Shown here: positions 2,201-64,000 of the stretch, piece by piece
Position numbering within the stretch: the first letter of the stretch is position 1
Layout of the letters: each line of letters starts with the position of its first letter
Origin: Botryllus schlosseri
Lineage: Eukaryota
Assembly: GCA_051294905.1 (NCBI GenBank)
Contig: CM119371.1
Span: 29,762,001-29,826,000, forward strand
Reading direction: 5' to 3'
DNA: 64,000 nt
Notes under the pieces: model-generated
The model's input: the letters and a program-made list of their open reading frames with translations, nothing else
Database searches by the model: none
What the model was told of the DNA's origin: nothing
Made by a program: the position numbers and the translations under genes

Positions 2201-2619
2201 GGTGGTCACACACAGTTTGTATGGGGTATAGACACGAGGCATGGTTAAAAAGGCTTACGTATTTCAAATTATTCGAAATAAAATATGAAGAACAGCAGTT
2301 CATACACTCTAAATTCGAATGCGTGCAGCGGAACGCAAATTTACATGCCAAATCCGTTTTTTTTTTAACTACCACACAACGTCCTGGAGCCGATGTGTGC
2401 CTGGCTATCCTGTGTTTCGTGGTGGCGTGTTCATGCTGACTCGTGCAGAGCTCGAAATTAATACCAGCCATCCATGAACTTAGGCTCAAAAAATATTATA
2501 TTGCAACGAAAGATGAATACAGAACATTCATTTGCAAACGAAAATGTGTGAATTTCTAGCTTGCACAATTGAAAAATTTAAGATTTTTCAAACACAAATA
2601 AGAATTACAGCTTCAAAGT

Positions 2620-8400: not shown

Positions 8401-8707
8401 ATAGGACGAGCCTCCACTGGCACATTTCTATAGCTTTCACACCATAAATAAGTCTAATCCAAACATGCACATATGTGGACTCAAACCCAAATTCCCTATT
8501 TTAAAATAAATTTACTTTAGACCGCAAAAATTATATATCTCCAGCTGAGTCAAAAACTCCGCTGGCCTCATGGCTGTAAGTAACATGGGTGAGTCTGGTG
8601 CCTTTTTCTAACAATCACGCAGCTTGACAAGCTTATGTGATGTCACAGTCACCAGATATGGCAGTGGCCCACACCTCAACAGTGGCCCATACCTACCCAC
8701 TCTCCCC
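5474..8707. mobile_element. Non-autonomous Tc1/mariner (pogo-like) DNA transposon
   Basis: Terminal inverted repeats (TIRs) ggggagagtgggtaggtatg / catacctacccactctcccc, flanked by TA at 5472-5473 and 8708-8709; subterminal ggcccatacc repeats. Confidence 0.85.
6528..8419. mobile_element. Non-autonomous hAT element nested in the mariner-type element
   Basis: TIRs cagtggcggctcgt / acgagcctccactg; perfect 8-bp TSD gcacattt at 6520-6527 and 8420-8427; degenerate internal tandem units at ~7350-8000. Confidence 0.9.
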
Positions 8708-15589: not shown

Positions 15590-16752
15590 AGAACAGGCTG
15601 ATCAAGTGATCAGCTGTTAGCCGTCATAGAAAACGAACTAGCTAGCTAACATCTCATCACCTATCTCAGTATGAAACACAGTTACAATTAGCACAGACCA
15701 ACACCGGCTTTTGCGTGAAATCCGCAATGCTGTAGTTTTCGTTAAGCCTTTGTGTCAGATGAGCGTATACCTCATTACCATACTCGACCTCGATAACGAA
15801 ATTACTGCCCTAATCATTGTGTGTCAACCCCAGATCTTGGCACACGTTCGATACTGAAGTCAAGATACCGTCCAAAAGCTCACGACCGATCTAGGTATGG
15901 AGCATCGTTAAAATCATTAGAGACCAATATCCGTTTTGCGCAAAATCTGTTGGTGATAAATGGCGATTCAGCTCTTACTCAACTTAGGAAACAAAATTAC
16001 CACTCACATAATTCAGCGATAAACTTAAAACTTGGTATGGCGTTCGATATTAACACCAAGACTAACTATACTAAATGTCGTGACCGATCTCGGTATGGAA
16101 CATCGTCAAAATCAATGGAGAACAATACCTGCTCTTGGGTAAAATCGGTTTTCGATACATGACGGATCAGCACACAGTCAACTTTGGACACGAAATTACT
16201 ACCCTACACTTGAACTAGCAACCCTGAAACTTTGAGCAGTGTTAAATAAGACCTTCACGACATAACATACCAAGTTTCAAGGATTATCATGGTGCGAAAC
16301 ATCGTCAAAATCGACCTATACCAGCAAAGGTCGAACCAGCGCATATGAAGGTAACCGAGTTCAGATATATATAAGATTGTTCCATCACACTTTAGGGGCA
16401 ACCATGCAAGGTTGCCCCACTTGCTCGGCAATTTTATGAATAGGAGAGAGTAAATCATCGTTTCATTATTGTGCGCGGCTTTGAGAGAACAGACAGTGAA
16501 AGCTTGTTATGCGCTGCCGGGGCAAACCCCGGCTCGGCATTCACAAAGCGAAAAGACAGAAGAGAATTCTATTTTCGCAGAGACTTCACTAGGTATGGGC
16601 ATTTACAAGCGAAAGCACAAGAAGAATGCGGGTTTCGCTGTGATTTCGGCTTATATTTATTGCTGTGCGTCTATAAATGGTAAATAATTGTTATTGAACG
16701 GAATTTTAGGTGGGGCAATGCCCCAGGTGCCCTATAGGACGAGTCGCCACTG
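15590..16752. mobile_element. Right portion of the hAT family seen at 6528-8419
   Basis: Colinear with ~7215-8419; ends ataggacgagtcgccactg. Confidence 0.85.
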
Positions 16753-17241
16753 GATTCAAACGACATATTACAGATGGAATATGACCTAACCTCACAAGCC
16801 GGGCTGTGGAGAGTCGGTAAATTTTACCACCGACTCCAACTCCGACTATAGACATTTTCATATACCGACTCCGACTGCGAGTATTTTCTCAAAAGAACTT
16901 CAACTCCGACTCCAGCAGTATTACCAATTTACTTCGAAAATGATATGCCACAGTGGCGTTCAAATAACTATCATATAACCATTAAACATGTGCAAACATA
17001 TGATTAACGATTGCATGCAAAATCGCTTCATTGTGGCACAGCTCGAATCATTCGCTATGCAATTAACATGAAAGATTGCCTTTTTAAATATTCTTCCTTT
17101 TTTCATATTTTATGAGCGTTTATAACATGGCTTAATATCATAATATGCATGAATCATTTCAACATGACATATATCCAATCCTGTATAATTAAAATGTAGA
17201 TAAAACAATCGAAGTGTAGCTCTTTTGTATTAGTCAACAAC

Positions 17242-22479: not shown

Positions 22480-25400
22480 CACTATTCGTTACAGTTGTCG
22501 ATTGAGATTCGGGAAGGGTGACGTTCTTAGCGGTACTATTAGATTTAACAGTTTTCAAAACACTGCAACCGAGCTGGAATCAAACGATCAGTACATGTGT
22601 CCTAATGACCTTCACTAGTCTCGAAAGTAAAACACTTCGGAGTGCGCTTCAACACTTGGTGCGGACCAGTATAGAGGGGGACAAGTGATCGTCTTGAGCT
22701 GTCGATTCTTATAAATACGTGGGTGCAAGTGATTAAACTATTGAGAGCCTGTGACTTTGGATTACAGTGAAAATTAGTGTGAAGTTTGGCCATGGCCGGA
22801 AAGAATCGTCTCAAATTGCTCACGAAAGTTGGATTATCGGGGCTATTCCTACACGGAACGGGATCAACTAATTGACCACACAAGCGTAATGAAGTACTAT
22901 AAGTCAATTCGGAAGTCGGGTACCATAAATCCTCTTATTTCACAACGCAACCACAAGATGCCTAAATTATAATACTAATCGGTCGGGCTCTCCTTTGTAC
23001 GCAACGCGTCTTTCAACGTACGGTTCATTCTTTCGACCACTGAAATTTGCTCAGGTTTACGGGCTAGGGTCCTAATATGATGGATTCAAAGCAATTGGTT
23101 AAGTTGTGACCATTCAATGGACGTAAATTGGCTACCTTGGTCCCTTATAAGTTTCTTGGGTGCGCCGAATCTAGATACATAGCCGAGCTTAAAAGCGTCA
23201 ATTACTATTTGGGTGCGCATATCACACATAGGGATACACTCCGGCCAACGAGAAAATCCATCAATGCACATGCACATCAATAAATATGAAAAACCGCAAC
23301 TAAGGCTATCAACATTTACGGTACGATAACGTTCAGAGGGCACTGGAAGGCTGGTTATTGGCGTTCGAGTATGCCGGGTTATCTTCGAGCGCTAACACGG
23401 AAGACACTGTCGAACAAACTCGGTTATGTGCCGCTTCAAATGAGGCCATACGTACCAGTCCGTTATCAGCTTCGTAGTCGCTCGAATGCTAGGGTGAAAA
23501 ATGTTGTGAAGTCCGTTGAGCATTGCGTCGCACAAAGAATGCGGTGCGAACGGGTGATGTTTTCCAGGCAGCGGCTTGTCGAAAATAACGGGGCCAAGCA
23601 ACCCTTCAACCGTCACCTCCACAAGACCAAATAATGCCCGTTGGAGTTCAACAGTCGATTTCGCAATTCGTCGTCGTCCTTCTGGGCGTCAAACAGCATC
23701 TGCGCAGAAATCGGAACGGTTTCTGGGAAAACCACATTGATTTCTAATCTTAAGAGAGTGTCGGCTTCAGTGTTCAGCGATCTTTAATTGTGACAGACGT
23801 CGCTTGTAAACTCCGTGATGAACCTTAAAGGCCCGGTTACACGACGAGTTGCCGCGAGGCTCAAAATTGCGAATGTACAATTGTACAAATATGGGTATCG
23901 GAATCGGAGAAGCCCTTTGGTGAACATATTGTACATTCTTAAGCGCTGTTTCGATAACTCAGTATCTCCATAACCCCGCGCCTACATAATAACCCGAGTA
24001 CAAAAGGCTCAGATATGATTGGCGTATTAACAAGCTGTGCATCACTGATTAGTCTCCTACTAGCTCGTCGCGCATCGCCTCAACTCGTCGCGACCGTACA
24101 TGTAACCGCACCTCGATTGGCGCGCGCGACGAGTCTTTCAGTAAGGTTCTGCAAAGCTTTAACAACACCATCGGTTATTAGTTGAAATTTTCTGCCCTTC
24201 AATTGAACGTGAAAATGTTCACTATCAGAATACGCTCCCGCGAGTTTGCGATCGAATGCTCAATGCGTTCGTTGGATACGATTAAGGATCTCCGAATAAT
24301 ACCCAAGAGGTTACCACACTCCTTTGTGTTGCTGTTGCAAAACTGCACCAATCCCTACTTCACTTGTATCCACAACTAAAGAGAGGTCCGATTCAGGAAC
24401 AGGCTGGGCGAGTAAGGCATTACCCGAGGGATCCGATTTGATGCGATCAAATGCTGATAATGCAGGGTCCAACCATACAATACGTCTGCGTTTGTTGGAT
24501 GATTGATTTGCAATATTGTAGAGCGGCTTCAATATAGTTGCGAAGTCTTTCACAAATCGACGATAGTAACACACCAGGCCAAGAAAGGATCGCAGTGGGT
24601 TTACGCTACGTGGGCGAGGGTAATTTGTAATCACATCAATCTTTTCAGGCAGGGGACGGATTCTCTCGAGACCAACTAAATGTCCAAGGACTGCTATCTC
24701 CTTTTGACCAAATTCGCACTTGCCAACGTTAATAACCAGACCAAACTCACAGAGCCTTGAAAAGAGTGTCCTGAGCGTCGTCAAGTGTTCGTGTTCAGTG
24801 CGGGGGGCGATTAAAACATCATCTTAAAACACAAAACTATGTTCGATTCCGGATGTAACCTCAGAGATAAAACGGTTAAAAGTGCTACATGCATTCGTCA
24901 ATCCGGAGGGCACGGTAGTTGGTTGATACAGTCCTCCAGGGCAAATAAACGCGGCATTCTCTTTGTCCCGGGAATGAAGAGGAATCTGACGTTACGCTTT
25001 CTGTAAATCAATCTTGTTGAACATACTGCAACCGTGCAATTCGTAAGTGAAATCTCGTAGAAAGGGAACTGGCCAGCGATCCTTGATTGTTTGATTGTTC
25101 AACTTACGGTAATCGACGCCAATCCTAATGTCGTCTTCACCTTTACGAACAACGGTAATAGGTGACACACACGGCGATTTTGAACGAACAATATGTCCGG
25201 ACACTAAAAGCTCGTCCAATTGTCCCCTTACCTTGCGTCTCAAATGCGGTTGTAAGGGGCGACAACGCGAACGCACAGGACCGCCAGTAGTCAATATCGA
25301 GTGTACGGTGCCATGCTTGCCACGTAGGGACGCAATCTTCGGTATGGTCAAATCTTTGAATTCCTTCAAGATATCGGCATATGGTTCTATATGGTGGGAC

Positions 25401-26250
25401 GGGATCAAGTTAGGGCCGAAAACAGTCGCACATTTCTTCCGGCCTCTCAGGAGGGTGTTCGAACTCGGGTCCAACATTACGTTATTCCTAATATCGACTA
25501 CAAAAGAGACTTCTTACAGGACATCAGCTCCTAATATCGCAAATTTTGTATCCGCTACATAGAATACAAAATCATACGTGTGCCCGTTTGAGAGTCGGAT
25601 CTTGCGAGAATTCGTACCACGAGTTGGCATAGTGGTGCCGTTCGTTGCATATAGGTTGGGTCCACGCTCTTAGTTACGACGGTCTTGCCATCTGCTGCGC
25701 ATGAGTGAAACGGATACTCAGGTATCTGCTAAAAAATGAGTTCATGTATGAAATGTCATCATGTACGTGTAATAGAGATACATCACGAGAGCTATGAGAC
25801 ACAACCAATGGACCTGCACGGCGTGAACGAAATCTTACGCGGTACCGCTGTCTAAAAAAGGACGAGCAGATTCGTGGTGTACACAACCAAGGCGACAATT
25901 CCTGCTCGATCAGTTCTTGATAATAGTAGACGTCGCATTCCCGGCTTTGCGGAGGGCCGTCGGTACAGTCATTACGACAAACTGCATTTTGATGCCTAGA
26001 GTCCGTATGCATGTCTTAAAAACGAGGGTGGTGACGAGTCGTCACCCCAGCGGCAGAAGTCGATCGTGGAGGTGCGCGGACCGAAAGTGAATTCCGCATA
26101 GGCGGTCAAGATAGAAGCTGTCTAACTTCACGGGTCAGGCTTTAAATTTCTCTTCGCATCCGATGAAAGTCGACGTTACAGGGCGCTTTGTGATCAGTAT
26201 GATGATACCCATGGGCGTAGATATTGTCAGCTCGTACTGCCAATTCATCT
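22480..26250 (-). mobile_element. Decayed Ty3/Gypsy LTR retrotransposon, internal region
   Basis: Minus-strand order RT (SPITVV..DIRIGVDYRKLN..KIDLQKA; FVF*DDVLIA), RNase H (DTSEVGIGAVLQQ), integrase zinc finger (HNIFHPS..VRQCLPC), integrase core (IDGFSRWP..DQGSQFTS), GPY/F-like (YTGPHQV). Many stops and frameshifts; LTRs not identified. Confidence 0.92.
23829..24113. mobile_element. PIF/Harbinger-like MITE inserted in the Gypsy pol region
   Basis: Imperfect TIRs aggcccggttacacg / catgtaaccgcacct; interrupts the RQSR..FITEF motif. Confidence 0.6.
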
Positions 26251-30380: not shown

Positions 30381-33300
30381 TGAGCAATGTTCCCTCTAAT
30401 TTTTCAAGAGTCTGCGAAAACACGCCAATTCACTGCGCAGGCCCTCGGACAACAGTGCGCAACCACCCTCCAATAAGGTGATAAAACTAACTACTGGGGG
30501 CCTGCCCCCCAGACCCCCCTACGCCTCTGGGCTTCTTCCGGTACTTATCATGTACTTTGGGTGCCCATTTAGTAGTAGCGTCCCTAAACGCGCGAAGCAC
30601 GAAAAAATTTCTATAATTCATGATTGCATCGGCCAATATGATCTGGAATTGCATATATATTGCCATCAATTTTTATCCTCTCCCTGCTCACATAATCAGA
30701 TTTATCGGTAGAGCTGATCCAGTGAGGTGTGTTGGAATAGATAGGCCCTCTAAATAATAATAAAACATCTTCGGGCGTACCCGTTGATATAATGACTTCG
30801 TTACATGATGCTATTTCGTGACCCCCTATCTGCTATGTCAAAAGATATTGAAATCGCCAAAACGTACTAAAAGACGTACACGATTACAAATTGGTATTTC
30901 CTAACTAGAAAATAATGTTCCCTCGATACGGCATTTGTCACTTGTTGCGGGACTCGGATCGCCAGGACAGGAACATTCGGCGCCAGCCATTTAGGCGCCC
31001 ATAGAAATGGACAATTACACATATATTTGAATATATCGAAGTTTTCGGTCAGGACCGGGGCAGTCTTTTTCGCCCAAGGTTTTCTCGCTGCTGATCGTTC
31101 TGGCGCACTTCTTGGATTCGCATGTTACATAGCCTTTAACTTCATATGTCTTGGCGCGTCATGGTGCGGTAATGGCCGACGCCCAACTGCCAACCAACCA
31201 ACCCAATAATCAGATATCTTACAATAATAAAACGCGCGTAGCGCGAAAAAAAATTCCTGAAAAATTTCAAAAAATACCTAATTATTTATGTTCATTCTCG
31301 AAATAATTTTGGGGCTCCTTAGAGCTCGGCCCCTCCAATTGGGGGGTTTGGGGTGCGAAAGTTACGGTCCTGAGTAAATCTTACGCAATGCTCATGCAAC
31401 GCGAAGAAGACTATCATTCGTTAGTTTCTCGCAGATTAACTTCGATCAACCCATTGTTATTTATAACTTTGTTAAACCAGGTTATTTCGCCATTCCCAGA
31501 AAATAATGCGCTATTTAAATGATATCAGTATCGCTCACGTGTACGAGGCCATACTAAAAAAATATCTTACGTCAGGCGCTGGTCATTGTGAACTCTAATT
31601 TCCTCACGGAGCGCAATATTTACCTTTGCTGGGCGCACTGGTACATCGGTTTCAGACTTCAGTGATAACATTATTTGGCCTTGGCAATGTTCCATCTTAA
31701 TTTTCACGAATCTGCGCGCCTGCGTAGTCCATTGGACAACAGTGCACAACAACTATAAAAAAAACAATACATCATTTCTGATTTTTTGTGCGCAACGTGG
31801 ATTTTCTGTGCGCAGATGCCGTTTCAGCACTGCGCATTTGCGCACGCGCGCAGCTTAGAGGGAACATTGCCTTCCATGCCATCAACCTATTCGTTGGGAT
31901 TGCTATCATTCTGGTTGCATTTTATGATATCACAAAATCAAAAAATAAACTTTTCACTGTCATAAAGGGGGCGTGTCTAGAAAGGTTTGAGGAATCACTG
32001 CTCCAGCACCATATCCTTGCAAGAAAACGGTGGCCTACTTTACATTTTGGGTTAATTTCAATTTTTGAAACTTCACCGGTCCTCCAAATATTTTTCGAAA
32101 TTTTACCGGTCCGCAAGGTGAAAGAGGTTGAGAAACACTGATCTAGAACATTGGTTGTACATTGCTGTTCCCGTAACCTATGAGTCAGTCTCAGGGGTTC
32201 CCTGGAGGTCAAAACACGCTCAACTCTTAAATATGATTTTCGATCACTTTATCATTGGTTTCAAGAATTAGGCCCGACAAGTAGTCGAAATAGGACTCTT
32301 GTGGTCGTATGCAAGTTTGTTTTTCAGTCGCAGTAATATACCAGACGAACTTTCGGGGCAAGGCGCACTTATTATTTTCGTAGCAACGCGTCGAAAAGAA
32401 AAGTACATATATTTTTTTTATATTTGCATTGTTAACCGAGCAGAATGTATAGTATGAACTGATATAGTTTCAATATCAAGGGCTGTCAGATTCCATTTTC
32501 TCAGCTTTCGCATAGGAATTTGAGTGAAATACAGGATCTGGGTTTTTCTGGGTTTATTTAGCGTCCACATCTGGGTTTTTCTGGCATCTCTGTAATATAC
32601 CGGCGGAGCCCATGTGTGTACGATTAAAAGCATCGATTTGCACAAAAGCATCATTATTTGTCACCGTTGAGTCCTCGCCATCTCCCGATGCAATTTTACG
32701 TTTGAAAAACTTGAATAAATACGTATATATTGGTGTGAAGTCTGTGTTGTCGAAGTACATGTACCGCCTTGGTGGTTTCAGTAGATCCGTATATTAACTT
32801 AACGCGCGATGTGTCGCTAAAGATTGGTGATAATGATGTGAAATGTCTTTAGATATTGGCATCAGTGGAAAATCATTACCGTCGTGGAAATATATAACAA
32901 TTAAAGTTACTATTCCGTACAGGTAATCGAGCGAAATTGACTCTCAGTAGCTAGTCTTGAATTTTGAATTCATTACCGCACAATTCCCGGACTGTTTAGA
33001 GCGGTTTTAGCATACCACCTTTGAAACTTTCTGGACTAAAAACATGAAATACATATTCTGCTTTTAGAAGTAGTATTTATGTTTCACTAATTCCCAGTAT
33101 CATATTATTTGTGTTATAATTAATATCAGTTCTTTTGTCCGAATAACATACATGTTGAAGTATAAAAGCAAGTGCAGTAATGCATTTAATTTCTGGAAAT
33201 AAAGCTACACAATATGGCATTTTTACGGTTCACCATATTTTTTATTAACGTTTACTAATTGCGCAAAGTGTTTACCCAGTATCCTATACAACTTCTCCGT

Positions 33301-34186
33301 ATTGCTCTTCGACTAAATTACGGGCCTTATAATATGGGGGATGGCGCCATACCATGCTATTTTCCAAAACGTGTTGTTCGAGAAAACAGAGGATTAGTAT
33401 CGCATTTCCTCATCAATACTATCATTTTCATCCCATGGTGTGGACGAATGCTTATGCTATCGAAAATTGGATACCTGCTGGTATGCATCAATATGAATCA
33501 AGCTCGTCACCTATCACATAGCTCAATTTGCACCTTTTTGTAATCCATCCAATCAGGATCGTTTTCACAACTACTTACTTACTTGAGTACTTTTAAAGTC
33601 AGTCAATTCTACTTCAAGTAGTTTTAGGTTGCTTATGAAAGAAGTACTTCTACTTGTACTTGATTAAATTTTTCTTCGCTACTTCTACTTCTACTTGAGT
33701 AGTTTTCTTGACTACTTTGACCACCTCTGACTGTAAGACGGTGTTCCGAGCACCTACTCGGTAAAATGAAGTTTCTTTTTCAGTCACTTCACCAGTGATC
33801 AGAGTTTAGTGAATAAATTTCCTGTTTATATGCTCCGTTTTTCGGATCCGAAAATAAGAGGGGCGAATATTTGTGTTGAGCTTGATACGGGGGCGATGAG
33901 TCAGTAAGGTTGGGAATCACCGTTCTAATTCAAAAACACGCTGCTTGTCACAGAGCGACGTTCCGTCATGCCAACCTCTTACACGCATTTAAATCTGAAT
34001 ATCATTATTATCATTCATTAAATCTGAATATCTCGATAAAGTAGCGGACACCCTGATGTTTGCTAGTGAAACTAATGAGGAAGAACCACCGCCACGTATT
34101 GGCGGTAAAATCGTGCATTTCATCCGTCCTTGCTTCTCACTTGTACACCAAGCATGTATCAACAATACACCGATCATATAGGAGGG

Positions 34187-34678
34187 ATTTGGGACAATGA
34201 TTACATCCGTGACCAAAAAGGAGCCTGCTATAAACAGCTTCAAAATACAATTTTTAACCGCCTTCCCGACACGAATAATCGTCATTATGATCGAATGATA
34301 TTTCGTCTATGGTCAGGTCATTGCCGTCTTAATTCCCATTTATTCAAGATTGGGTGTGCCGACTCCCCCTTGTGTTCAATATGCTGCGTCCCGGACACTG
34401 TTTCAAATTTGCTAATGGAATGTCGTAAATTTGAATTTCATCGCCGCTTTTTGATTGCTCATTGTGTCAATGAAAACGTTGCTTTCTCTGTACAAAATCT
34501 ATTGACCCTCCATTGCCTAACTATACCAGTTATAGAATTTATTATCTCCTGCGTATTATTTCTCTGATCTCTTTGCTTTTCTCCAATTGCCTCATTGAAC
34601 GTATACTGAGCGTGGTGCAAATAATCTTCATCGGTTGGAAAGCGCCACTTGTTTCCATATTAATAATAATAATAATAA
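34187..34678 (+). mobile_element. 5'-truncated I-group LINE 3' end with a (TAA)6 tail
   Basis: ORF end WDNDY..KG..RLWSGHCRLNSHLFKIG..SPLCSICCVPDTVSNLLMEC (C-terminal zinc knuckle), stop at 34567, (TAA)6 at 34661-34678. TSD atataggaggg at 34176-34186 and 39359-39369. Confidence 0.9.
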
Positions 34679-34681
34679 CTA

Positions 34682-35433
34682 TGGTCACTACATTCATCTT
34701 GAATTATGCAAACATTTTAACATCACCACTTCGACAAAAAATTGGTACGATTACAGCCCAGCACCAGTGACAGAAAACGAACAAGTAAAAATTCTGTGGG
34801 ATGTACCAGTTATAACTGACCGCGAAATCAGGAGCAACCGCCCGGATATAATCGTCAAACTAAAAAAGAAAAGAGAATGCTTATTCATTGAACTGGCTGT
34901 CCCAGCTGATCACAACCTACTGCAAAAAGAATCAGAAAAATACTCCAAATACGCAGACCTCAAAATGGAATGTGAGAAAATGTGGCGATGCAAAATAAAC
35001 ATTGTACCGATAGTCATTGGTGCTACAGGGGTCGTGAGCAAAAAACTCATGAGACATATCCAACAAATTCCGGGTAACGTTCGATTCGACATGATCCAAA
35101 AGATCACATTATTGGGCACTGTGCACATTCTTCGGAAGGCCTTGAATGCACCACTGGACTAAAATTACGCTTGTGAATCACAGCATAATTTCTGTAATTT
35201 CGATTCTTCATCTTCAATCATCTCTACCTCTGCTCTGTAACCCTTGCCAATTCTTCATCTGCTGCAATTCTGTAATCTGACTTCTCCGTGTATTGCATAG
35301 GAATAACAATTTGAATGTATTACTGAAATTTTAAAAATTTACTCCAATCTCGCCATTTTCCTTTGGGGGCAGGTTGCTCCCCGGATTATGTGTGTATCTA
35401 CCAGTTTTACTGTGAATAAAGAATATAATAATA
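34682..35433 (+). mobile_element. R4/Dong-clade non-LTR retrotransposon with restriction-like endonuclease (RLE), 5'-truncated copy 1
   Basis: KILWD..TDR..NRPDII..FIELAVP..EKYSKY..VPIVIGATG (PD-(D/E)xK endonuclease), stop at 35162, ~265-nt 3' UTR, aataaa, TAA tail. Confidence 0.93.
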
Positions 35434-35434
35434 G

Positions 35435-36418
35435 TGGACCTGGACCTGGCTATCCAGCTCTGGCCTGAAACCGGCAAGCGAAGGATTCATTTTCGCAGCA
35501 CAAGACCAATCGCTTCCCACAAAATACTATCGCAAAAGAATTCTGAAGCAAAACACGGACGGCAAATGCAGAATGTGCCACAACCAAAATGAAACTGTAG
35601 CACATCTCATGTCCGGCTGTGGTGCACTTGCAGCTACCGAATACACATGGAGACACAATAGGATTGGTCACTACATTCATCTTGAATTATGCAAACATTT
35701 CAACATCACCACTTCGACAAAAAATTGGTACGATTACAGCCCAGCACCAGTGACAGAAAACGAACAAGTAAAAATTCTGTGGGATGTACCAGTTATAACT
35801 GACCGCGAAATCAGGAGCAACCGCCCGGATATAATCGTCAAACTAAAAAAGAAAAGAGAATGCTTATTCATTGAACTGGCTGTCCCAGCTGATCACAACC
35901 TACTGCAAAAAGAATCAGAAAAATACTCCAAATACGCAGACCTCAAAATGGAATGTGAGAAAATGTGGCGATGCAAAATAAACATTGTACCGATAGTCAT
36001 TGGTGCTACAGGGGTCGTGAGCAAAAGACTCATGAGACATATCCAACAAATTCCGGGTAACGTTCGATTCGACATGATCCAAAAGATCACATTATTGGGC
36101 ACTGTGCACATTCTTCGGAAGGCCTTGAATGCACCACTGGACTAAAATTACGCTTGTGAATCACAGCATAATTTCTGTAATTTCGATTCTTCATCTTCAA
36201 TCATCTCTACCTCTGCTCTGTAACCCTTGCCAATTCTTCATCTGCTGCAATTCTGTAATCTGACTTCTCCGTGTATTGCATAGGAATAACAATTTGAATG
36301 TATTACTGAAATTTTAAAAATTTACTCCAATCTCGCCATTTTCCTTTGGGGGCAGGTTGCTCCCCGGATTATGTGTGTATCTACCAGTTTTACTGTGAAT
36401 AAAGAATATAATAATAAT
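35435..36418 (+). mobile_element. R4/Dong-clade copy 2 (5'-truncated)
   Basis: Starts tggacctggacc; encodes EGFIFAAQDQ, CRMC..ETVAHLMSGC (CCHC), RHN and the RLE domain; same 3' end as copy 1. Confidence 0.93.
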
Positions 36419-36843
36419 AGTCATTGGCGCTACAGGGGTCGTAAGCAAAAAACTCATGAGACATATCCGACAGATTCCGGGTAACGTTCGATTCGACATG
36501 ATCCAAAAGATCACGTTATTGGGCACTGTGCATATTCTTCGGAAGGCGTTGAATGCACCACTGGACTAAAATTATACTAGTGAATCACAGCATCATTTCT
36601 GTAATTTCGATTCTTCATTTTCAATCATCTCTACCTCTGCTCTGTAACCCTTGCCAATTCTTCATCTACTGCAATTCTGTAATCTGACTTCTCCATGTAT
36701 TGCATAGGAATAACAATTTGACTGCATTACTGAAATTTTAAAAATTTACTCTAATCTCGCCATTTTCCTTTGGGTGCAGGTTGCTCCCCGGATTATGTGT
36801 GTATTGACCAGTTTCTTACTGTGAATAAAGAATATAATAATAA
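36417..36843 (+). mobile_element. R4/Dong-clade copy 3 (shortest, most diverged)
   Basis: Starts atagtcattgg, overlapping the previous tail; same 3' end; many private substitutions. Confidence 0.92.
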
Positions 36844-37512
36844 CAGAAAACGAACAAGTAAAAATTCTGTGGGATGTACCAGTTATAACTGACCGCGAAA
36901 TCAGAAGCAACCGCCCGGATATAATCGTCAAACTAAAAAAGAAAAGAGAATGCTTATTCATTGAACTGGCTGTCCCAGCTGATCACAACCTACTGCAGAA
37001 AGAATCAAAAAAACACTCCAAATACGCAGACCTCAAAATGGAATGTGAGAAAATGTGGCGATGCAAAATAAACATTGTACCGATAGTCATTGGCGCTACA
37101 GGGGTCGTGAGCAAAAAACTCATGAGACATATCCAACAAATTCCGGGTAACGTTCGATTCGACATGATCCAAAAGATCACATTATTGGGCACTGTGCACA
37201 TTCTTCGGAAGGCCTTGAATGCACCACTGGACTAAAATTACGCCTGTGAATCACAGCATAATTTCGGTAATTTCGATTCTTCATCTTCAATCATCTCTAC
37301 CTCTGCTCTGTAACCCTTGCCAATTCTTCATCTGCTGCAATTCTGTAATCTGACTTCTCCATGTATTGCATAGGAATATCAATTTGAATGTATTACTGAA
37401 ATTTTAAAAATTCACTCCAATCTCGCCATTTTCCTTTGGGGGCAGGTTGCTCCCCGGATTATGTGTGTATTTACCAGTTTTACTGTGAATAAAGAATATA
37501 AATAATAATAAT
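36843..37512 (+). mobile_element. R4/Dong-clade copy 4
   Basis: Starts acagaaaacgaac; RLE domain, 3' UTR and TAA tail. Confidence 0.93.
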
Positions 37513-38042
37513 AGCTGATCACAACCCACTGCAAAAAGAATCAGAAAAACACTCCAAATACGCAGACCTCAAAATGGAATGTGAGAAAATGTGGCGATGC
37601 AAAATAAACATTGTACCGATAGTCATTGGTGCTACAGGGGTCGTGAGCAAAAAACTCATGAGGCATATCCATCAAATTCCGGGTAACGTTCGATTCGACA
37701 TGATCCAGAAGATCACATTATTGGGTACTGTGCACATTCTTCGGAAGGCCTTGATTGCACCACTGGACTAAAATTACACTTGTGAATCACAGCATAATTT
37801 CTGTAATTTCGATTCTTCATCTTCAATCATCTCTACCTCTGCTCTGTAACCCTTGCCAATTCTTCATCTGCTGCAATTCTGTAATCTGACTTCTCCGTGT
37901 ATTGCATAGGAATAACAATTTGAATGTATTACTGAAATTTTAAAAATTTACTTCAATCTCGCCATTTTCCTTTGGGGGCAGGTTGCTCCCCGGATTATGT
38001 GTGTATCTACCAGTTTTACTGTGAATAAAGAGTATAATAATA
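37513..38042 (+). mobile_element. R4/Dong-clade copy 5
   Basis: Starts agctgatcac; RLE C-terminus, 3' UTR and TAA tail. Confidence 0.93.
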
Positions 38043-38070
38043 GAAATCAGAAGAATAAGAATAAGAATAA

Positions 38071-39360
38071 CAGAAATCATCGGCTTGTCACAGTACATCA
38101 ACAACAGCGATAACATTTACTGCAAACTCATTGCACAGGAAGACAAACAGCGCAAAACAAAATCTCTGAGCTATCGTCACGACAAGTACGTCAGAGAAGT
38201 CAACATGGAAACAGCTAACCTGTTCACTGCAGAAAACACTGTTGCTATGCCCACAACAATAGCAAAAGCAGCACGAGTCCAATACAAAAATGCAACGCTC
38301 AAAATGAGAGAAACAATATGGGAGTCGATGCCTCTTCATGGACAGCACAAGAAGTTAACTTCACAGCCCCATGTAGACGAGCTTTCATGGACCTGGCTAT
38401 CCAGCTCTGGCCTGAAACCGGCAAGCGAAGGATTCATTTTCGCAGCACAAGACCAATCGCTTCCTACAAAATACTATCGCAAAAGAATTCTGAAGCAAAA
38501 CACGGACGGCAAATGCAGAATGTGCCACAACCAAAATGAAACTGTAACACATCTGATGTCCGGCTGTGGTGCACTTGCAGCTACCGAATACACATGGAGA
38601 CACAATAGGATTGGTCACTACATTCATCTTGAATATGCAAACATTTTAACATCACCACTTCGACAAAAAATTGGTACGACTACAGCCCAGCACCAGTGAC
38701 AGAAAACGAGCAAGTAAAAATTCTGTGGGATGTACCAGTTATAACTGACCGCGAAATCAGGAGCAACCGCCCGGATATAATCGTCAAACTAAAAAAGAAA
38801 AGAGAATGCTTATTCATTGAACTGGCTGTCCCAGCTGATCACAACCTACTGCAAAAAGAATCAGAAAAACACTCCAAATACGCAGACCTCAAAATGGAAT
38901 GTGAAGAAATGTGGCGATGCAAAATAAACATTGTACCGATAGTCATTGGCGCTACAGGGGTCGTGAGCAAAAAACTCATGAGACATATCCAACAAATTCC
39001 GGGTAACGCTCGATTCGACATGATCCAAAAGATCACATTATTGGGCACTGTGCACATTCTTCGGAAGGCCTTGAATGCACCACTGGACTAAAATTACACT
39101 TGTGAATCACAGCATGATTTCTGTAATTTCGATTCTTCATCTTCAATCATCTCTACCTCTGCTCTGTAACCCTTGCCAATTCTTCATCTGCTGCAATTCT
39201 GTAAACTTCTCCATGTATTGCATAGGAATACCGATTTGAATGTATTACTGAAATTTTAAAAATTTACTCCATTCTCGCCATTTTCCTTTGGGGGCAGGTT
39301 GCTCCCCGGATTATGTGTGTATTTACCAGTTTTACTGTGAATAAAGAATATAATAATAAT
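38071..39360 (+). mobile_element. R4/Dong-clade copy 6 (longest, ~1.3 kb)
   Basis: WESMPLHGQ..SWTWL..EGFIFAAQDQ..CCHC..RHN; a 1-bp deletion at ~38634 shifts the frame; RLE domain; TAA tail abuts the TSD. Confidence 0.93.
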
Positions 39361-40379
39361 ATAGGAGGGTTTCTATTCCAACAAGTCGCAACATCTTTAT
39401 TCGCGAACAATTGTGTTGACAGAAATACGGTGATTGTCCGTTTAAATATAGTTAAGAGCCGATAAAACAATAGCGTTAACGACAATGCAAGTTGGCATAT
39501 TTCAATGCTCTGTTTGCTGTAGTCGTAGTCTGCCATTAGCCCGCGTGTGTGGTGTGGGGAATACATGATATTTAACTTTAAACTTGGTCGTAGGAGTTCG
39601 GGTTGTTATTATTAATCGCCAGTCGCGGTTGTTTTCCCAAGTCGAGGAATATATATTCGATGGGAAGTGACACAGCAGTGCGACGATAGGTATTTGAATT
39701 ATATATCTGTGTAACATGCAAATTACAGATATCGATTCCGCATTGGCGTTCTCACTTCTGTGAATAGCTACTACTTGGTCCATTTTTCCATAAAACTCTG
39801 AATTCAGTGTCCACTTTGTGCCTTCTCGAAGTAGAGAGAGTGAAAGCACAACACCATAGTCGGTTGGTTCTAATGTGGCCTTTGAACATTGAACATGCTC
39901 GGCATTTTCTGTCTTACGAACATTTCACAAATTAGATTCGATTTATAATTAGAGCATATAAGCATTTCGCAAATTATAGATTAGAATTAGAATTAGAGAT
40001 TAATTTCACAAATTATATTACAGTGAGATTACTTGCATTTCGTTCTAATTTAGTGAAATCAGACAACTAGAATTATCTAAATGTCCAAGTCCGAGTTCAA
40101 CACTCCGCGCATAAGAATCCATAACACATCATCGCCACAACCTATACCTGAGCTGAAAGGGTACCAAAACACAATTTGTATAAGGGTCACTTCATCAGAT
40201 ATCCCTATACCTGAAAGGGTACCTTCACCAGAGATTCCATAAGAAACCGTGTTAGTTCACCAGCGATGGGGGGTTTAAAAAGGTGGGGTCCCCTACACGA
40301 GTTTTCATGTTAGCTAACCAGAGACCCCTTAAGACACAACGCCAACTTGCCACCGATCTACTATACTACTAACGCTTAC

Positions 40380-45171: not shown

Positions 45172-45993
45172 ACCTAAGATAACGTAATGTACTTCAATAA
45201 CTGTTGAAGTCGATGAGACATCTGTGATCGATCAAATTTGTGTACACCTTCTAAGAACTCTTGTGGCATGTCGGACACAAAAAAGCAAACAAACATTATT
45301 TGTGTCCGAAAAAAAGAAAGAAAGAATAACTTACAGTCACTATAATAATAGCCTATATCAGGAGTGGACATTCTGTCCAACCATTTTACTAATCATGGCG
45401 GTATTTCGTTAATTTACGTAGACTACGTCCGCATTCTAGTGCCTAGTCGTAACGAACTAACTGAACGAAAATACCCATAGTAAACTGCCCGAGTCCATTT
45501 CATGCGAACTCCAGACCTACATATTTCATACTATCGGCTTACTATATGCACTGAAATCGCGAGTAGTCCTGTCATGAAGAATTACTGGAATTCGTCTTGC
45601 ATTCGCGCCAGTCGCGAAGAATTTTCAAATTCGTTGCTGAATTTCATCAATAATATTAGTAGTTTCATATATCACTATCAAATACTTAGCCTATGTCGGC
45701 ACATGTGATCAAGTTCTCCGGTAGAATTGATGGATGGAGTGTTTTCGAATTTTTGGGCAAGTTATAAATGATGCTGGGCCGATAGGTATTTGTCCTTTTT
45801 TCCATGACAAATACATTGAAGACGGGGCGGTAGAGGGCGAAGCCCAGTTGGGCTTTTAGGATTCGCACGTTGCCGTTCAACATATTTCGAGCTTGAATCG
45901 CATCGAATGACCACTCGACTATACTTATCGATCACAAAATTCTATGGACTATTTCTAGACTCAATTCAAGACTTGAAGCTATCAGGTTTGTGC

Positions 45994-46947
45994 CAGTGTT
46001 GGGATCAAGTCACCACCTTCGAGTCACAAGTCATCTCGAGTCATTGCAGATTTTGACTCGAGTCAAGTCAAGTCAATCGATTTTCAAAGGTGACTCGAGT
46101 CAAGTCAAGTCACTCGTTTTTTTAAGGTGACTCGAGTCAAGTCGAGTCAAGTCACGAGTCAAGTCACAATTCAAGTCAAATTGAATTTGCGAAATATGAG
46201 TGATGATTCAAAGTCATTTCATTTTGCTAGCTGTGTGAAAGACAGATTAATTAATCATTTATCCTGATCAAATAACGAATATCTAGTTAAATATACATGC
46301 AAAAAGACGGTGTATCCGTCATGCACACGTAGAACTGCTAATAAAGTATGTGAGTAACTGTACAGCTACATACTACAGTCAGTTCTTATCAGCCAAAATA
46401 TAGGACCTAATACGAAGCTTCGAGAAGTTGAAACAAATTGATATGGTACAATAGCCTACACTACCCATCTATACATCCGTGAGAATATAAACGCACACAA
46501 TACATTCGTTCGATTTAAATCATACAAGAGGATTGGTAAATCTGAGCAATGGGCAACGTAAGCATTGAGCAGTCTAAGAAACAAAGACACATTGCTATTT
46601 AGAATAATTTTCCAATTTGCGGTCAATTTATTTGTGATCTAACAATGGAGGAACCTTGTAATGTACAATCAGTGAATGACTGGTTGCTGTCATAAGTGAC
46701 ACCGGCGTATCTCGAACAATCCGAACATACACAAGATACAGTGATTTATTCGACACCGCTAACTTAATGACTTGAAATTGATTCGTAAATTTTGCTCCGA
46801 GTCACGAGTCAATGCACATTTTTGAAGCTCCGAGTCAATTCAAGTCAAGTCATTTTGCCAAAGTTACTCGAGTCAAGTCAAGTCATACGAAAAAGTTGAC
46901 TCGAGTCTGACTCGAGTCAAGTCATGACTCGAGTCATCCCAACACTG
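45994..46947. mobile_element. hAT MITE with gagtcaagtc subterminal repeats
   Basis: TIRs cagtgttgggat / atcccaacactg; perfect TSD gtttgtgc; empty paralogous site at ~58815-58835. Confidence 0.93.
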
Positions 46948-52403: not shown

Positions 52404-52773
52404 ATAACAGTTGTTGCCGAGAACTATATGAACCATAGTCTCAGGGTTCCCTGGAGATCAGAACACACTCAACTCATATTGATGATTTGCTCTTGGCTAT
52501 CACTATATCATTGGTTTCAGGAAGTAGGCACGATTAGTAGTCGAAATATGACTGTTGTGGTCGTGTGCAGTGGTGTACGAGTGGTGAACGAGATGAAGCT
52601 GCGGTTCGAAATCGAACCACCGTCGTACTGAAATGCCGATTCCGTCTCCAATATACATAAGTGCAGGTGCAATATCACATACATAGCCTACCCGAGAACT
52701 ATACCATACTTGATAGCCAACAATGCCTTCGTGGTTGTCCGGGTAACATCTGGTCGACACGTCAACACTCAAC

Positions 52774-53693
52774 CAGTGTTGGGATCAAGTCACTACCTTC
52801 GAGTCACGAGTCATCTCGAGTCATTGCAGATTTTGACTCGAGTCAAGTCAAGTCAATCGATTTTCAAAGGTGACTCGAGTCAAGTCAAGTCACTCGATTT
52901 TTGGAAGTGACTCGAGTCAAGTCGAGTCAAGTCAAGTCAAGTCACGAGTCAAGTCACAATTCAAGTCAAATTGAATTTCCGAAGTATGAGTGATGATTCA
53001 AAGTCATTACATTTTGCTAGCTGTGTGAAAGACAGCATTTATCTTAATCATATATAGTTAAATATACATGCTAAAAGACGGTGTATCCCTAACGCACGCG
53101 TAGAACTACTAACTGTACAGCTACATACTACAGTCAGTTCTTAACAGCCAAAATATAGGACCTAATACGAAGCTTCGAGAAGTTGAAACAAATTGATATG
53201 GTGCAATAGCCTACACTGCTACCCATCTACACATCCGTGAGAATATAAACGCACACAATATATTCGTTCGATTTAAACCATACAAGAGAATCGGTAAATG
53301 TGAGCACTGCGCAACGTAAGCATTGAGCCGTCTAAGAAACAGAGACACATTGCTATTTAGTTTAATTTTCTACTTTGCGGTCAATTCATTTGTGATCTAA
53401 CATTGGAGGAACCTTGTAACGTACGATCAGTGAATGACTGGTTGCTCTCACAAGTGACACCGGCGTATCTCGAACAATCCGAACATACACAAGACACAGT
53501 GATTTATTCGACACCGCTTACTTAATGACTTGAAATTGACTCGTAAATTTTGCTCCGAGTCACGAGTCAATGCACATTTTTGAAGGTCCGAGTCAAGTCA
53601 AGTCAAGTCATTTTTCCAAAGTGACTCGAGTCAAGTCAAGTCATACGAAAAAGTTGACTCGAGTCTGACTCGAGTCAAGTCATCCCAACACTG
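52774..53693. mobile_element. hAT MITE, same family as 45994-46947
   Basis: TIRs cagtgttgggat / atcccaacactg; perfect TSD cactcaac. Confidence 0.93.
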
Positions 53694-61347: not shown

Positions 61348-62420
61348 CTATAATATATATAAGTATGGAACTGTATTCGCTATATTTGAAAGTAGGTGGT
61401 TGTTGTTGATAGTTTTGAAGCCTATTTTCCAAGCGATCAGGCGGAAGTATTAAAACAAAGATGTGAGCTTTGCATCCCTTCGAAGAGTTGTCATGGTTAG
61501 TGGTTACTGTCACTGTTCACTGTCATAAAAGGGCGTGTCTAGAAAAGTTTGAGGACCACTGCTCTAGCGCCATATACTTGCAAGAAAACGGTGGCCTACT
61601 TTACATTTTGGGTTAATTTCAATGTTTAAATCGCTTGCGAATATTAAATATTCCAATCTGAATACAATAAAATCGAATGAAATTCGACCGCACTCGCGTT
61701 ACAGCGTTGTTGCTTACATTTCGCTTGCCGTAACTGCCATTCCATGAGCTACCAGAAGTAGTTTTAAAATGTTAGACTGTGTGACTGTAACAGTTATACG
61801 AATATTAGTTTCAATCTGTTAAACGTGGAAGTCATTCCCGCGCTTATCGGATGATCATCACACAACATCTATTTCTCATAAGCATCATTTTCATTCAGTA
61901 GTTCCGAACGTGGGCGATATCGCCACCGGCGGGCGATTTTGAGAAACAAAGGGGCGACAATATCAAATGGGGCGATTGGGGGGCAACAGGGGGTGAAAAT
62001 GTTAGGGGCGTTAGACCTATAATGTAGCCAATAAGCCACAAATGTCAAATGATAAGTTCACTGACAGTGCAAAATCTACGGTACAAACGAAATGCAGGTT
62101 GCAAAAGTTTTTTGAATTTGTAAACAATATCGACATTTTTGACCTAACGCTACAATTTTGACAGAATTTTAACTTTTTTGGCGCGACCAAAAAAAAGTCG
62201 CCCTACTCACAAGCATCATTCTAATTCAGTAGCTCCCAACGTGGGCGATATCACCCATCAAAGGGCGATTTTGAGAAACAATGGGGCGAAAATACCAAAG
62301 GGAGCGATTAGGGAACGACGGGGTGGGGTGAAAATGTTGAAACATCCAGTGAGATATATTTAATCAACGCGGCCATATAATGCACGTGAAGACGGTTCAT
62401 TCTGCATATGAGGCGGAAGT

Positions 62421-64000
62421 TGACTGTAAGACGGTTTTCCGAGCACCTACTCGGTAAAATGAAGTTTCATTTTCAGTCACTTCACCAGTGATCAGAATTT
62501 AGTGAATAAATTTCCTGTTTATATGCCCCGTTTTTCGGATCCGAAAATAAGAGGGGCGAATATTTGTGTCGAGCTTGATATACGGGGGCGATGAGTCGGA
62601 AAAGGTTGGGAATCACCGTTCTAATTCAAAAACACGCAGCTTGTCACAGAGCGACGTTCCGTCATGCCAACCTCCTACACGCATTGTAGCTTCATTAAAT
62701 CTGAATATCTCGATAAAGTAGCGGACACCCTGATGTTTGCTCGTGAAACTAATGAGGAAGAACCACAGCCACGTATTGGCGGTAGAATCGTACATTTCAT
62801 CCGTTGCCGCACAATCCCTAATGATTATAGCGATACAAAATTCTATTCTAAGATATATCCTAATCCAGGGGTGTCAAACTCAAATTGCGCCGCGGGCCAG
62901 ATTCTACCCTTCAAATCGCCCGCGGCCGGACGGATCAGTCAACTGATTCCAAACCGTTACCTCGTGTCCTTGCTTCTCACTTGAACACTAAGCATATATC
63001 AACAATACACCGATCATATAGGAGGGGTTCTATTCCAACAAGTCGCAACATCTTTATTTGCAAACAATTGTGTTGGCAGAAATACGGTGATTGTCCGTTT
63101 GAATATAGTTAAGAGCCGATAAAACAATAGCGTTAACGACAATGTAAGTTGGCATATTTCAATGCTCTCTTTGCTGTAGTCGTAGTCTGCCATTAGCCCG
63201 CGTATGTGCTGTGAGGAATACATGATATTGAACTTTAAACTTGGTCGTAGGAGTTCGGGTTGTTATCATTAAATCGCCAGTCGCGGTTCTTTTCCGAAGT
63301 CGAGGAATATATAATCGATGGGAAGTGACACAGCAGTGCGACAATAGGTATTTGAATTATATATCTGTGTAACATGCAAATTGCAGATATCGATTCCGCA
63401 TTGGCGTTCTCACTTCAGTGCATAGCTACTACTTGGTCCATTTTTCCATAAAACTCTGAATTCAGTGTCCACTTTTTGCCTTCTCGAAGTAGAGAGAGCA
63501 CAACACCATAGTCGGTTGGTTCTAATGTGGCCTATGAACATTGAACATGCTCGGCATTTTCTGTCTTACGAACATTTCACAAATTAGATTCGATTTATAA
63601 TTAGAGCATATAAACATTTCACAAATTATAGATTAGAATTAGAATTAGAGATTCATTTCACAAATTATATTACAGTGAGATTACTTGCCTTTCGCTCTAA
63701 TTTAGTGAAATCAGACAACTAGAATTATCTAAATGTCCAAGTCTGAGCTCAACACTCCGCGCATAAGAATCCATAACACATCATCACCACAGCCTATACC
63801 TGAGCTGAAAGGGTTCCAAAACACAATTTGTATAAGGGTCACTTCATCAGATATCCCTATACATGAAAGGGTACCATCACCAGAGATTCCATAAGAAGCC
63901 GTGTTAGTTCACCAGCGATGGGGGGTCTAAAAAGGTGGGGTCCCCTACACGGGTTTTCGTGTGAGCTAACCAGAGACCACTTAAGACACAACGCCAACTT
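62421..64000 (+). repeat. Segmental duplication, copy 2 (holds the empty retroelement site; continues past the window end)
   Basis: Single atataggaggg at 63016-63026; the flanks match both sides of the 34187-39360 insert. Confidence 0.95.
62866..64000. mobile_element. hAT non-autonomous element carrying decayed LDLa-gene-like sequence
   Basis: Left TIR caggggtgtcaaac after tcctaatc; right TIR and TSD seen in the paralogue at 40696-40716. Confidence 0.75.

What the first reader, a model, noticed from the sequence alone, without database searches (positions are those of the whole stretch)
63005..63040. An empty paralogous site gives the insertion order of the composite element
Seen: the duplicate reads cgatc-atataggaggg-gttctattcc once. 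The filled copy has atataggaggg at 34176-34186 and again at 39359-39369, bracketing the LINE fragment plus all six R4 copies. Inference: the order was segmental duplication, then LINE insertion creating the 11-bp TSD, then R4 insertions into its tail. All seven insertions therefore postdate a still highly similar duplication.
Basis: partly seen in the sequence, partly recalled or inferred. Interest (0 to 1): 0.7.

Follow-up and report, generated by a model that had tools for sequence, protein, structure and literature searches.

The report
Empty twin dates nested retrotransposon stack
An uninterrupted twin of the landing site shows that one jumping gene and six copies of a second were inserted here, likely one after another and by known habits, but the twin may be the other chromosome's version of the same spot rather than a true duplicate, so this is ordinary.

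Summary
In detail: the 11-mer occurs three times in 64 kb (34176, 39359, 63016), and the empty copy restores the pre-insertion site. The target duplication is 8-11 bp, because its first three bases also read as TAA tail. The order LINE first, R4/Dong-like copies later is supported independently: the LINE piece has 15 private changes in 473 bp (3.2%, neutral pattern), the two copies beside it 2 in 1484, so the composite did not arrive in one event. 'All seven postdate a segmental duplication' is only partly supported. The flanks differ by 55 of 1406 bases (2.0% per branch), so the LINE is as old as the split, not clearly younger. In one sequenced sample filled and empty forms mostly sit at half depth, which alleles placed in tandem, or a one-haplotype duplication, would also give. 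What is shown is split, then insertions; that the split was a duplication is inferred. Empty-site dating, TAA targeting by Dong and stacked site-specific LINEs are in print. The scan noted the array before on this same window; a sequence look-up found nothing on other DNA.

The parts
63016..63026 (+). Empty target site, single copy of the 11-mer
62421..63015 (+). Left flank of the empty copy; 16 differences in 433 compared bases from the filled copy (24 bases around an indel masked)
62803..62965 (+). 163 bp present only in the empty copy; holds a hAT-like transposon end from 62866 (motif recalled); likely deleted from the filled copy at a 2-bp microhomology
63027..64000 (+). Right flank of the empty copy, runs off the window; 39 differences in 973 bases
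33728..34175 (+). Left flank of the filled copy; mosaic of middle-repetitive and low-copy DNA
34176..34186 (+). Left copy of the target-site duplication
34187..34660 (+). 5'-truncated LINE piece: last 126 codons of ORF2 with a decayed zinc knuckle, and 3' UTR; relatives carry APE + RT + RNase H (I-group-like); 15 private substitutions and one 1-bp indel
34661..34678 (+). (TAA)6 tail of the LINE, the longest TAA run on the + strand of the window
34682..35433 (+). R1: youngest R4/Dong-like copy with short TAA tail; 1 difference in 511 and 1 in 271 bases from family contigs of run X5
35434..36419 (+). R2: 2 differences from R1 in 743 bases; 7 extra bases at its 5' junction repeat its first bases; 236-codon open frame with zinc knuckle and RLE-like motifs
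36417..36843 (+). R3: shortest copy, about 5% from the others, 5 of 6 coding singletons synonymous; 2-bp insertion shared with other contigs, so a second subfamily
36843..37513 (+). R4: 6 singletons in 655 bases
37513..38042 (+). R5: 8 singletons in 521 bases
38043..39358 (+). R6: longest copy (1.3 kb), with a 1-bp frameshift and a 4-bp 3' UTR deletion; short repeated filler at its 5' end; TAA tail runs into the right target copy
39359..39369 (+). Right copy of the target-site duplication; first three bases shared with the TAA tail
39370..40348 (+). Right flank of the filled copy, as far as the window lets it be compared
31949..32069 (+). Further 121-bp match (91%) to 61512-61630 at a similar offset; may mark where the paired region begins; the DNA between it and 33728 has no counterpart in 61631-62420

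Best explanation
An uninterrupted copy of the landing site sits 24-29 kb from a copy that holds one LINE piece and six R4/Dong-like pieces inside an 8-11-bp target duplication; the LINE likely inserted first, at about the time the two copies (likely a local duplication) split, and the six others were likely added later, mostly one at a time, into TAA runs. Shown: filled and empty forms, the duplication, six different 5' truncation points each behind a TAA run, and much more decay in the LINE than in R1/R2/R4-R6. Inferred: an APE-type, I-group-like LINE made the target duplication by target-primed reverse transcription at a non-TAA site, with its (TAA)n end pairing to the first target bases; its tail then offered the target of a TAA-specific RLE element, and each new copy left TAA on both sides, renewing the target. 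Inferred and least certain: that the two copies are true paralogs and that the duplication event came before the LINE.
For: Three-fold occurrence of the 11-mer. LINE family continues upstream of 34188 in X5, X2 and X3 contigs, so the piece is a 5' truncation that starts at the target. 6 of 7 full-length relatives scanned carry APE + RT and 5 of 7 RNase H too; 4 of 4 shorter close relatives carry RNase H. The target is not a TAA run, whereas all six R copies start within 0-7 bases of one. LINE private changes 3 synonymous, 8 non-synonymous, 4 UTR: no excess of synonymous (P 0.42), i.e. decay in place. R1+R2 2/1484, R4-R6 21/1914 singletons, the latter synonymous-rich (8 of 14 coding, P 0.004), so even younger than counted. 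Tail-to-truncation joints not present in this array (35433 or 35423 back to 35071, 35075, 35245, 34863 in X2) show the same stacking elsewhere in the genome. The LINE's own 3' end is a difference-free contig at single-copy depth (X2 52.9), so no second near-identical composite is visible. For a real duplication: no N gap in the window, and the low-copy stretch 34080-34186 shows only the two known forms, so the pair is not two members of a large repeat family.
Against: The LINE's 3.2% (95% interval 1.8-5.2%) is above the 2.0% per branch of the flanks (P 0.05-0.14), the wrong side for an insertion clearly after the split. Filled and empty forms are mostly at half depth in S1: X1 9.95, 8.63 and 13; X2 50 and 52.9; X3 12.4 and 7.45, against a second class near 17-20, 85-100 and 20-25; one reading (X2 80.6 on 33955-34064) falls in the upper class. 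R3 has 15 singletons in 416 bases, more than the 8.1 expected at the split (P 0.02), explained only if they are subfamily differences. No LINE-only or shorter allele was seen. R1 and R2 could be one event by template jumping.
Confidence: 0.55

Rival explanations
1. The filled and empty copies are, or were, alleles of one locus. Either the assembly placed both haplotypes in tandem, or a real duplication joined an already filled haplotype to an empty one by unequal exchange. The nested order LINE then R copies stays, but the LINE would precede the duplication event, or there is no duplication.
For: Half-depth readings for both forms and only two forms seen in S1. LINE age equal to or above one branch. 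Half depth is the listed sign of false heterotype duplications (PMC9516828, passages), and tandem misassembly of alleles is described as common for the very heterozygous Ciona savignyi (PMC1868934, passages); an unchecked note of this scan calls the host a sea squirt.
Against: One depth reading in the upper class (X2 80.6); contig depths are rough, the upper class is taken from best-supported joints and so biased upward, and each run showed only one of the two known forms at 34130-34179, so further forms can be missed. No gap in the window. A haplotype-specific true duplication gives the same depth (also noted in PMC9516828). Differences do not fall with distance from the insertion (10, 9, 4, 8, 8 per 200 bp), so no sign of recombination with empty alleles.
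Confidence: 0.35
2. The composite arrived in one event: 3' transduction by a LINE master that already held the R array, or serial template jumping by an RLE reverse transcriptase that ended on a LINE RNA.
For: One target duplication brackets everything, which a single event also gives. R2 proteins make longer products by template jumping and head-to-tail inserts are reported (PMC11371274, passages).
Against: Parts of one insertion must share an age: LINE 15/473 with neutral pattern against R1+R2 2/1484 (P 4e-8) and against R1's 2/782 from family contigs (P 2e-5). The LINE's 3' end is at single-copy depth. Pairs such as R1-R2 may still be one event.
Confidence: 0.04
3. The array grew by unequal crossing-over or tandem duplication of one R copy.
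For: R1 and R2 differ by 2 of 743 bases.
Against: All six 5' junctions differ in position and in junction bases; R1 matches the genome-wide family contigs, which explains the identity; R3 is another subfamily.
Confidence: 0.03
4. The LINE predates a true duplication and the empty copy arose later, by gene conversion from an empty allele or by recombination between the two short repeats.
For: LINE decay above one branch. Of three flank differences polarised with the 159-bp satellite, two point to the filled copy as derived and the third is alignment-dependent: too few to say.
Against: Needs a rare extra event; no drop in divergence around the target, which a recent conversion tract would give.
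Confidence: 0.03

Closest known systems
[quoted passage not shown]
   Same: A paralogous locus without the insertion defines the target and its duplication.
   Different: Here the insertion is a nest of seven retrotransposon pieces, and paralogy itself is not established.
Dong (Bombyx mori), DongAg, DongBg and ostracod Dong1/2 of the R4/Dong clade (PMC3812793, PMC7998251, PMC3774820; passages)
   Same: RT with C-terminal zinc knuckle and REL endonuclease; insertion into (TAA)n; 38% identity over 232 aa to an unnamed B. mori RT protein.
   Different: Only 3' pieces are present, so the N-terminal Myb-like domain and 5' ribozyme cannot be seen; no named Dong or R4 sequence was aligned. PMC3812793 calls these elements APE-type, PMC7998251 REL-type; this element's motifs and relatives fit REL.
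Tandem R1 arrays in Drosophila rDNA (PMC2718515, passages)
   Same: A site-specific LINE re-inserts into the target left beside an earlier copy, giving head-to-tail stacks.
   Different: The target there is a 14-bp 28S duplication; here it is a TAA run first supplied by an unrelated LINE.
I factor / I-group LINEs (PMC3747384, passage: the I element ends in TAA repeats)
   Same: TAA tail; relatives with APE, RT, RNase H and a C-terminal zinc knuckle; target duplication of about 10-14 bp (recalled).
   Different: Clade (I, Nimb, Ingi, Loa, R1) not determined; only 126 codons remain.
False heterotype duplication / tandem allele misassembly (PMC9516828, PMC1868934; passages)
   Same: Two similar copies close together on one scaffold, each near half depth.
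   Different: No gap seen between the copies; read-pair or long-read test not run.

Membership tests
Target-site duplication / empty-site pair | Short direct repeat on both sides of the insert, present once at the empty site | tested here: met
   8-11 bp
Target-site duplication / empty-site pair | Insert begins and ends at element boundaries | tested here: met
   Family match starts at 34188, one base after the repeat; TAA tail runs into the right repeat
Segmental duplication | At least 1 kb at 90% identity or more (definition recalled) | tested here: met
   1406 compared bases at 96.1%; true length unknown, runs off the window
Segmental duplication | Low copy, not two members of a repeat family | tested here: met
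Segmental duplication | Both copies on one chromosome molecule (not alleles) | tested here: inconclusive
   7 of 8 depth readings near half depth, 1 near full; no spanning reads available
R4/Dong clade | C-terminal CCHC zinc knuckle followed by REL endonuclease motifs | tested here: met
   CX2CX8HX4C, RHN, RPD, KY motifs shared with relatives (motif names recalled); weak zf-RVT and L_protein_N endonuclease hits below Pfam cut-off; no PDB match
R4/Dong clade | Single ORF with central RT and no APE domain | tested here: met
   On relatives only: 4 of 4 full-length homologs scanned have RVT_1 and no APE; the copies here lack this part
R4/Dong clade | Insertion into (TAA)n | tested here: met
   6 of 6 copies start behind and end in TAA runs; sites outside this array not examined one by one
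R4/Dong clade | RT phylogeny with named R4, Dong and Rex6 elements | not tested
   No named reference was returned by the searches
R4/Dong clade | N-terminal Myb-like domain, no zinc fingers; 5' HDV-like ribozyme | not testable with these tools
   All six copies are 5'-truncated; no genome held
I-group LINE | ORF2 with APE, RT and RNase H | tested here: met
   On relatives only: (5 of 7 long relatives have all three; 4 of 4 closer short ones have RNase H)
I-group LINE | (TAA)n 3' end | tested here: met
   (TAA)6 at 34661-34678; PMC3747384 passage
I-group LINE | Clade placement by RT tree | not testable with these tools
   RT region absent from the window copy

The most novel reading that the evidence does not exclude
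The stack grows from one end: new copies go preferentially into the LINE's own long TAA tail and push older ones away, so such arrays are time-ordered records of which retrotransposon subfamily was active, and the empty twin fixes time zero. The two youngest copies are first (chance 1 in 15) and age rises along the array (rho 0.9, P 0.04 without R3; 0.6, P 0.12 with it).
Probability: 0.25. Interest if true: 0.35.

Novelty: already known. Interest (0 to 1): 0.15.

Why it matters
As it stands it is a tidy worked example, not new biology: it fixes the target duplication of an I-group-like LINE and shows a TAA-targeting element reusing that LINE's tail. Its practical value is the caution: an empty twin dates insertions against the split of two sequences, which in a polymorphic animal may be an allelic split or an assembly artefact rather than a duplication. 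If arrays of this kind grow from one end genome-wide, they would give a cheap internal clock for subfamily succession.

Tried and rejected
Whole-genome search for other copies: no genome held. Protein search of the LINE piece among longer proteins found nothing; the full HMMER search did. PDB sequence search of R2: no match. Named Dong/R4 reference: not obtained. Tree of the six copies: no starred branch, uninformative. Junction script failed for 4 of 5 copies and was redone (R3 not printed there; read). Other end of the repeat that bounds the filled copy at 33729: not found in the window. Colinearity between 32070-33727 and 61631-62420: best E 0.046, none. Polarising flank differences with the satellite: 3 sites only. 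RNA run X23 (3% read) shows reads on the R family and few on the LINE; not used. Look-up of the empty copy among earlier findings: none. Rows set aside before the LINE count (32 rows): 6 polymorphic in the family, 9 subfamily variants absent from the X5 contig, 2 in the flank; 2 of the X5 contig's 23 differences were not listed. Counting all 23 would give 4.7% and make the LINE look older still. No search was made to show that this array is absent from print.

Full report
Observation. The window is 40% G+C, has no N and is dense in repeats. The DNA left of 34176 aligns to the DNA left of 63016 and the DNA right of 39369 to the DNA right of 63026, up to the end of the window. So 63016-63026 is an empty form of the site. 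The duplication is 8-11 bp: its first three bases on the right also read as TAA tail, and it cannot be longer, since the flanking bases differ and the LINE family match begins at 34188, one base after the left repeat.

What the insert is. 34187-34660 is the 3' end of a LINE: 126 codons with a decayed zinc knuckle, then a UTR and (TAA)6. A full HMMER search found 857 relatives at E 0.001; of 11 scanned, 5 of 7 long ones carry APE, RT and RNase H, one APE and RT, one RT only, and 4 of 4 shorter, closer ones carry RNase H. That is an I-group-like element; the I element ends in TAA repeats (PMC3747384, passage). The clade is not determined. Six pieces of a second element follow, 418-1307 bp, all ending at the same 3' end and each truncated at a different 5' point. 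The R2 frame has 70 homologs at E 1e-10 among 1087 candidates; 4 of 4 long ones scanned have a central RT and no APE; the zinc knuckle and REL-like motifs are shared (motif names recalled), and an unnamed Bombyx mori RT protein is 38% identical. R4/Dong elements have RT plus REL endonuclease and Dong targets (TAA)n (PMC7998251, PMC3812793, PMC3774820; passages). It works like Dong; membership by tree was not tested.

Order inside the insert. Contigs of four public DNA runs (two samples) were laid on the LINE. At 15 of 473 positions the other letter holds about 90% or more of the depth in X1 and X2 and is also in the X5 family contig (at one of them X3 shows only 31%). These are 3 synonymous, 8 non-synonymous and 4 UTR changes, no synonymous excess: decay in place, 3.2%. 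R1 differs from X5 family contigs by 1 in 511 and 1 in 271 bases; singletons are R1 0/742, R2 2/742, R3 15/416, R4 6/655, R5 8/521, R6 7/738. LINE against R1+R2 gives P 4e-8, against R4-R6 P 0.002. R4-R6 coding singletons are synonymous-rich (8 of 14), so part of them came with the source element. R3 has 5 of 6 coding singletons synonymous (P 0.004) and its 2-bp insertion occurs in other contigs: a second subfamily, undatable here. The youngest copies lie between the LINE and the older ones, so they were put into an existing structure. This rejects arrival of the whole composite in one event, by transduction or template jumping (known for R2 proteins: PMC11371274, passages), though R1 and R2 could be one event. 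Distinct junctions reject tandem duplication. Tail-to-truncation joints absent from this array occur in X2, so stacking happens elsewhere in this genome; re-insertion of a site-specific LINE into the target left by an earlier copy is described for R1 (PMC2718515, passages).

Order against the duplication. The flanks differ at 16 of 433 bases on the left (24 bases masked around an indel) and 39 of 973 on the right: 3.9% in all, 2.0% per branch. R1, R2, R4 and R6 fall below that (P 0.03 or less), R5 is compatible, R3 is above it unless its changes are subfamily changes, and the LINE has 15 against 9.3 expected (P 0.05; 0.14 with adjacent changes merged). So the LINE is about as old as the split. 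This fits an insertion right after the split but gives no support for 'after'. The filled copy also lacks 163 bp, has an 18-bp repeat and is cut off on the left by an abundant repeat end; a further 121-bp match at 31949/61512 may mark the start of the paired region.

Is it a duplication? On the low-copy stretch 34080-34186 only the two known forms were laid, so these are not members of a large family. Their depths are X1 9.95, 8.63 and 13, X2 50 and 52.9, X3 12.4 and 7.45, about half of a second class (one contig at 34367-34499 reads 19.7, 84.6 and 25; joints have medians 16.7 and 94.6, biased upward). One reading, X2 80.6, is in the upper class, and each run lacks one known form at 34130-34179, so more forms may be hidden. 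Half depth is the mark of alleles assembled as paralogs but also of a haplotype-specific duplication (PMC9516828, passages); tandem allele misassembly is described in a very heterozygous sea squirt (PMC1868934, passages), and an unchecked note of this scan calls the host a sea squirt. There is no gap in the window. Even a real duplication can join a filled and an empty allele. The empty twin therefore shows: split of two lineages, LINE, then R copies. 'Segmental duplication first' is the likeliest reading (0.55) with an allelic reading close behind (0.35).

Verdict. Real, correctly described, mostly correctly ordered, and made of known parts: empty-site comparison (PMC2213677, passages), TAA targeting and stacking. 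The boldest reading left is growth from the LINE end, weakly hinted. No supplements were read; all papers were seen as search listings and passages only. Interest 0.15, already known.

Noticed in passing
window 24311-25513 (- strand), with pieces to about 22600: Broken frames that read like the RT and RNase H of a Ty3/gypsy-type LTR retrotransposon (likeness recalled, not searched).
   Followed up: no
window 2597-4680: 159-bp tandem array, about 10 copies at 93%; short pieces of the same unit lie inside both copies of the paired region (39923-40019, 63575-63671).
   Followed up: partly
window 33500-33729: End of an extremely abundant small repeat with a hAT-like terminus (motif recalled); hundreds of contigs leave at 33729; its other end was not found in the window.
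   Followed up: partly
window 45993-46925 and 52773-53683; 7374-8420 and 15701-16753: Two more direct pairs of about 1 kb, 90% and 85% identical; the first contains short internal tandem repeats.
   Followed up: no
window 38043-38080 and 35434-35440: 5' junctions of R6 and R2 carry short repeated filler that looks like slippage or re-priming at second-strand synthesis.
   Followed up: no
joint 34679 to 35056 in X2: A contig joins a TAA run or LINE tail to an R copy at another truncation point with 10 other bases between; may be a second LINE-tail landing elsewhere, side length not shown.
   Followed up: no
window 34682-35434, run X23: RNA reads of 2026 cover the R family on both strands, and 72 reads continue into upstream element sequence at 34682, so longer copies are transcribed somewhere.
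   Followed up: no
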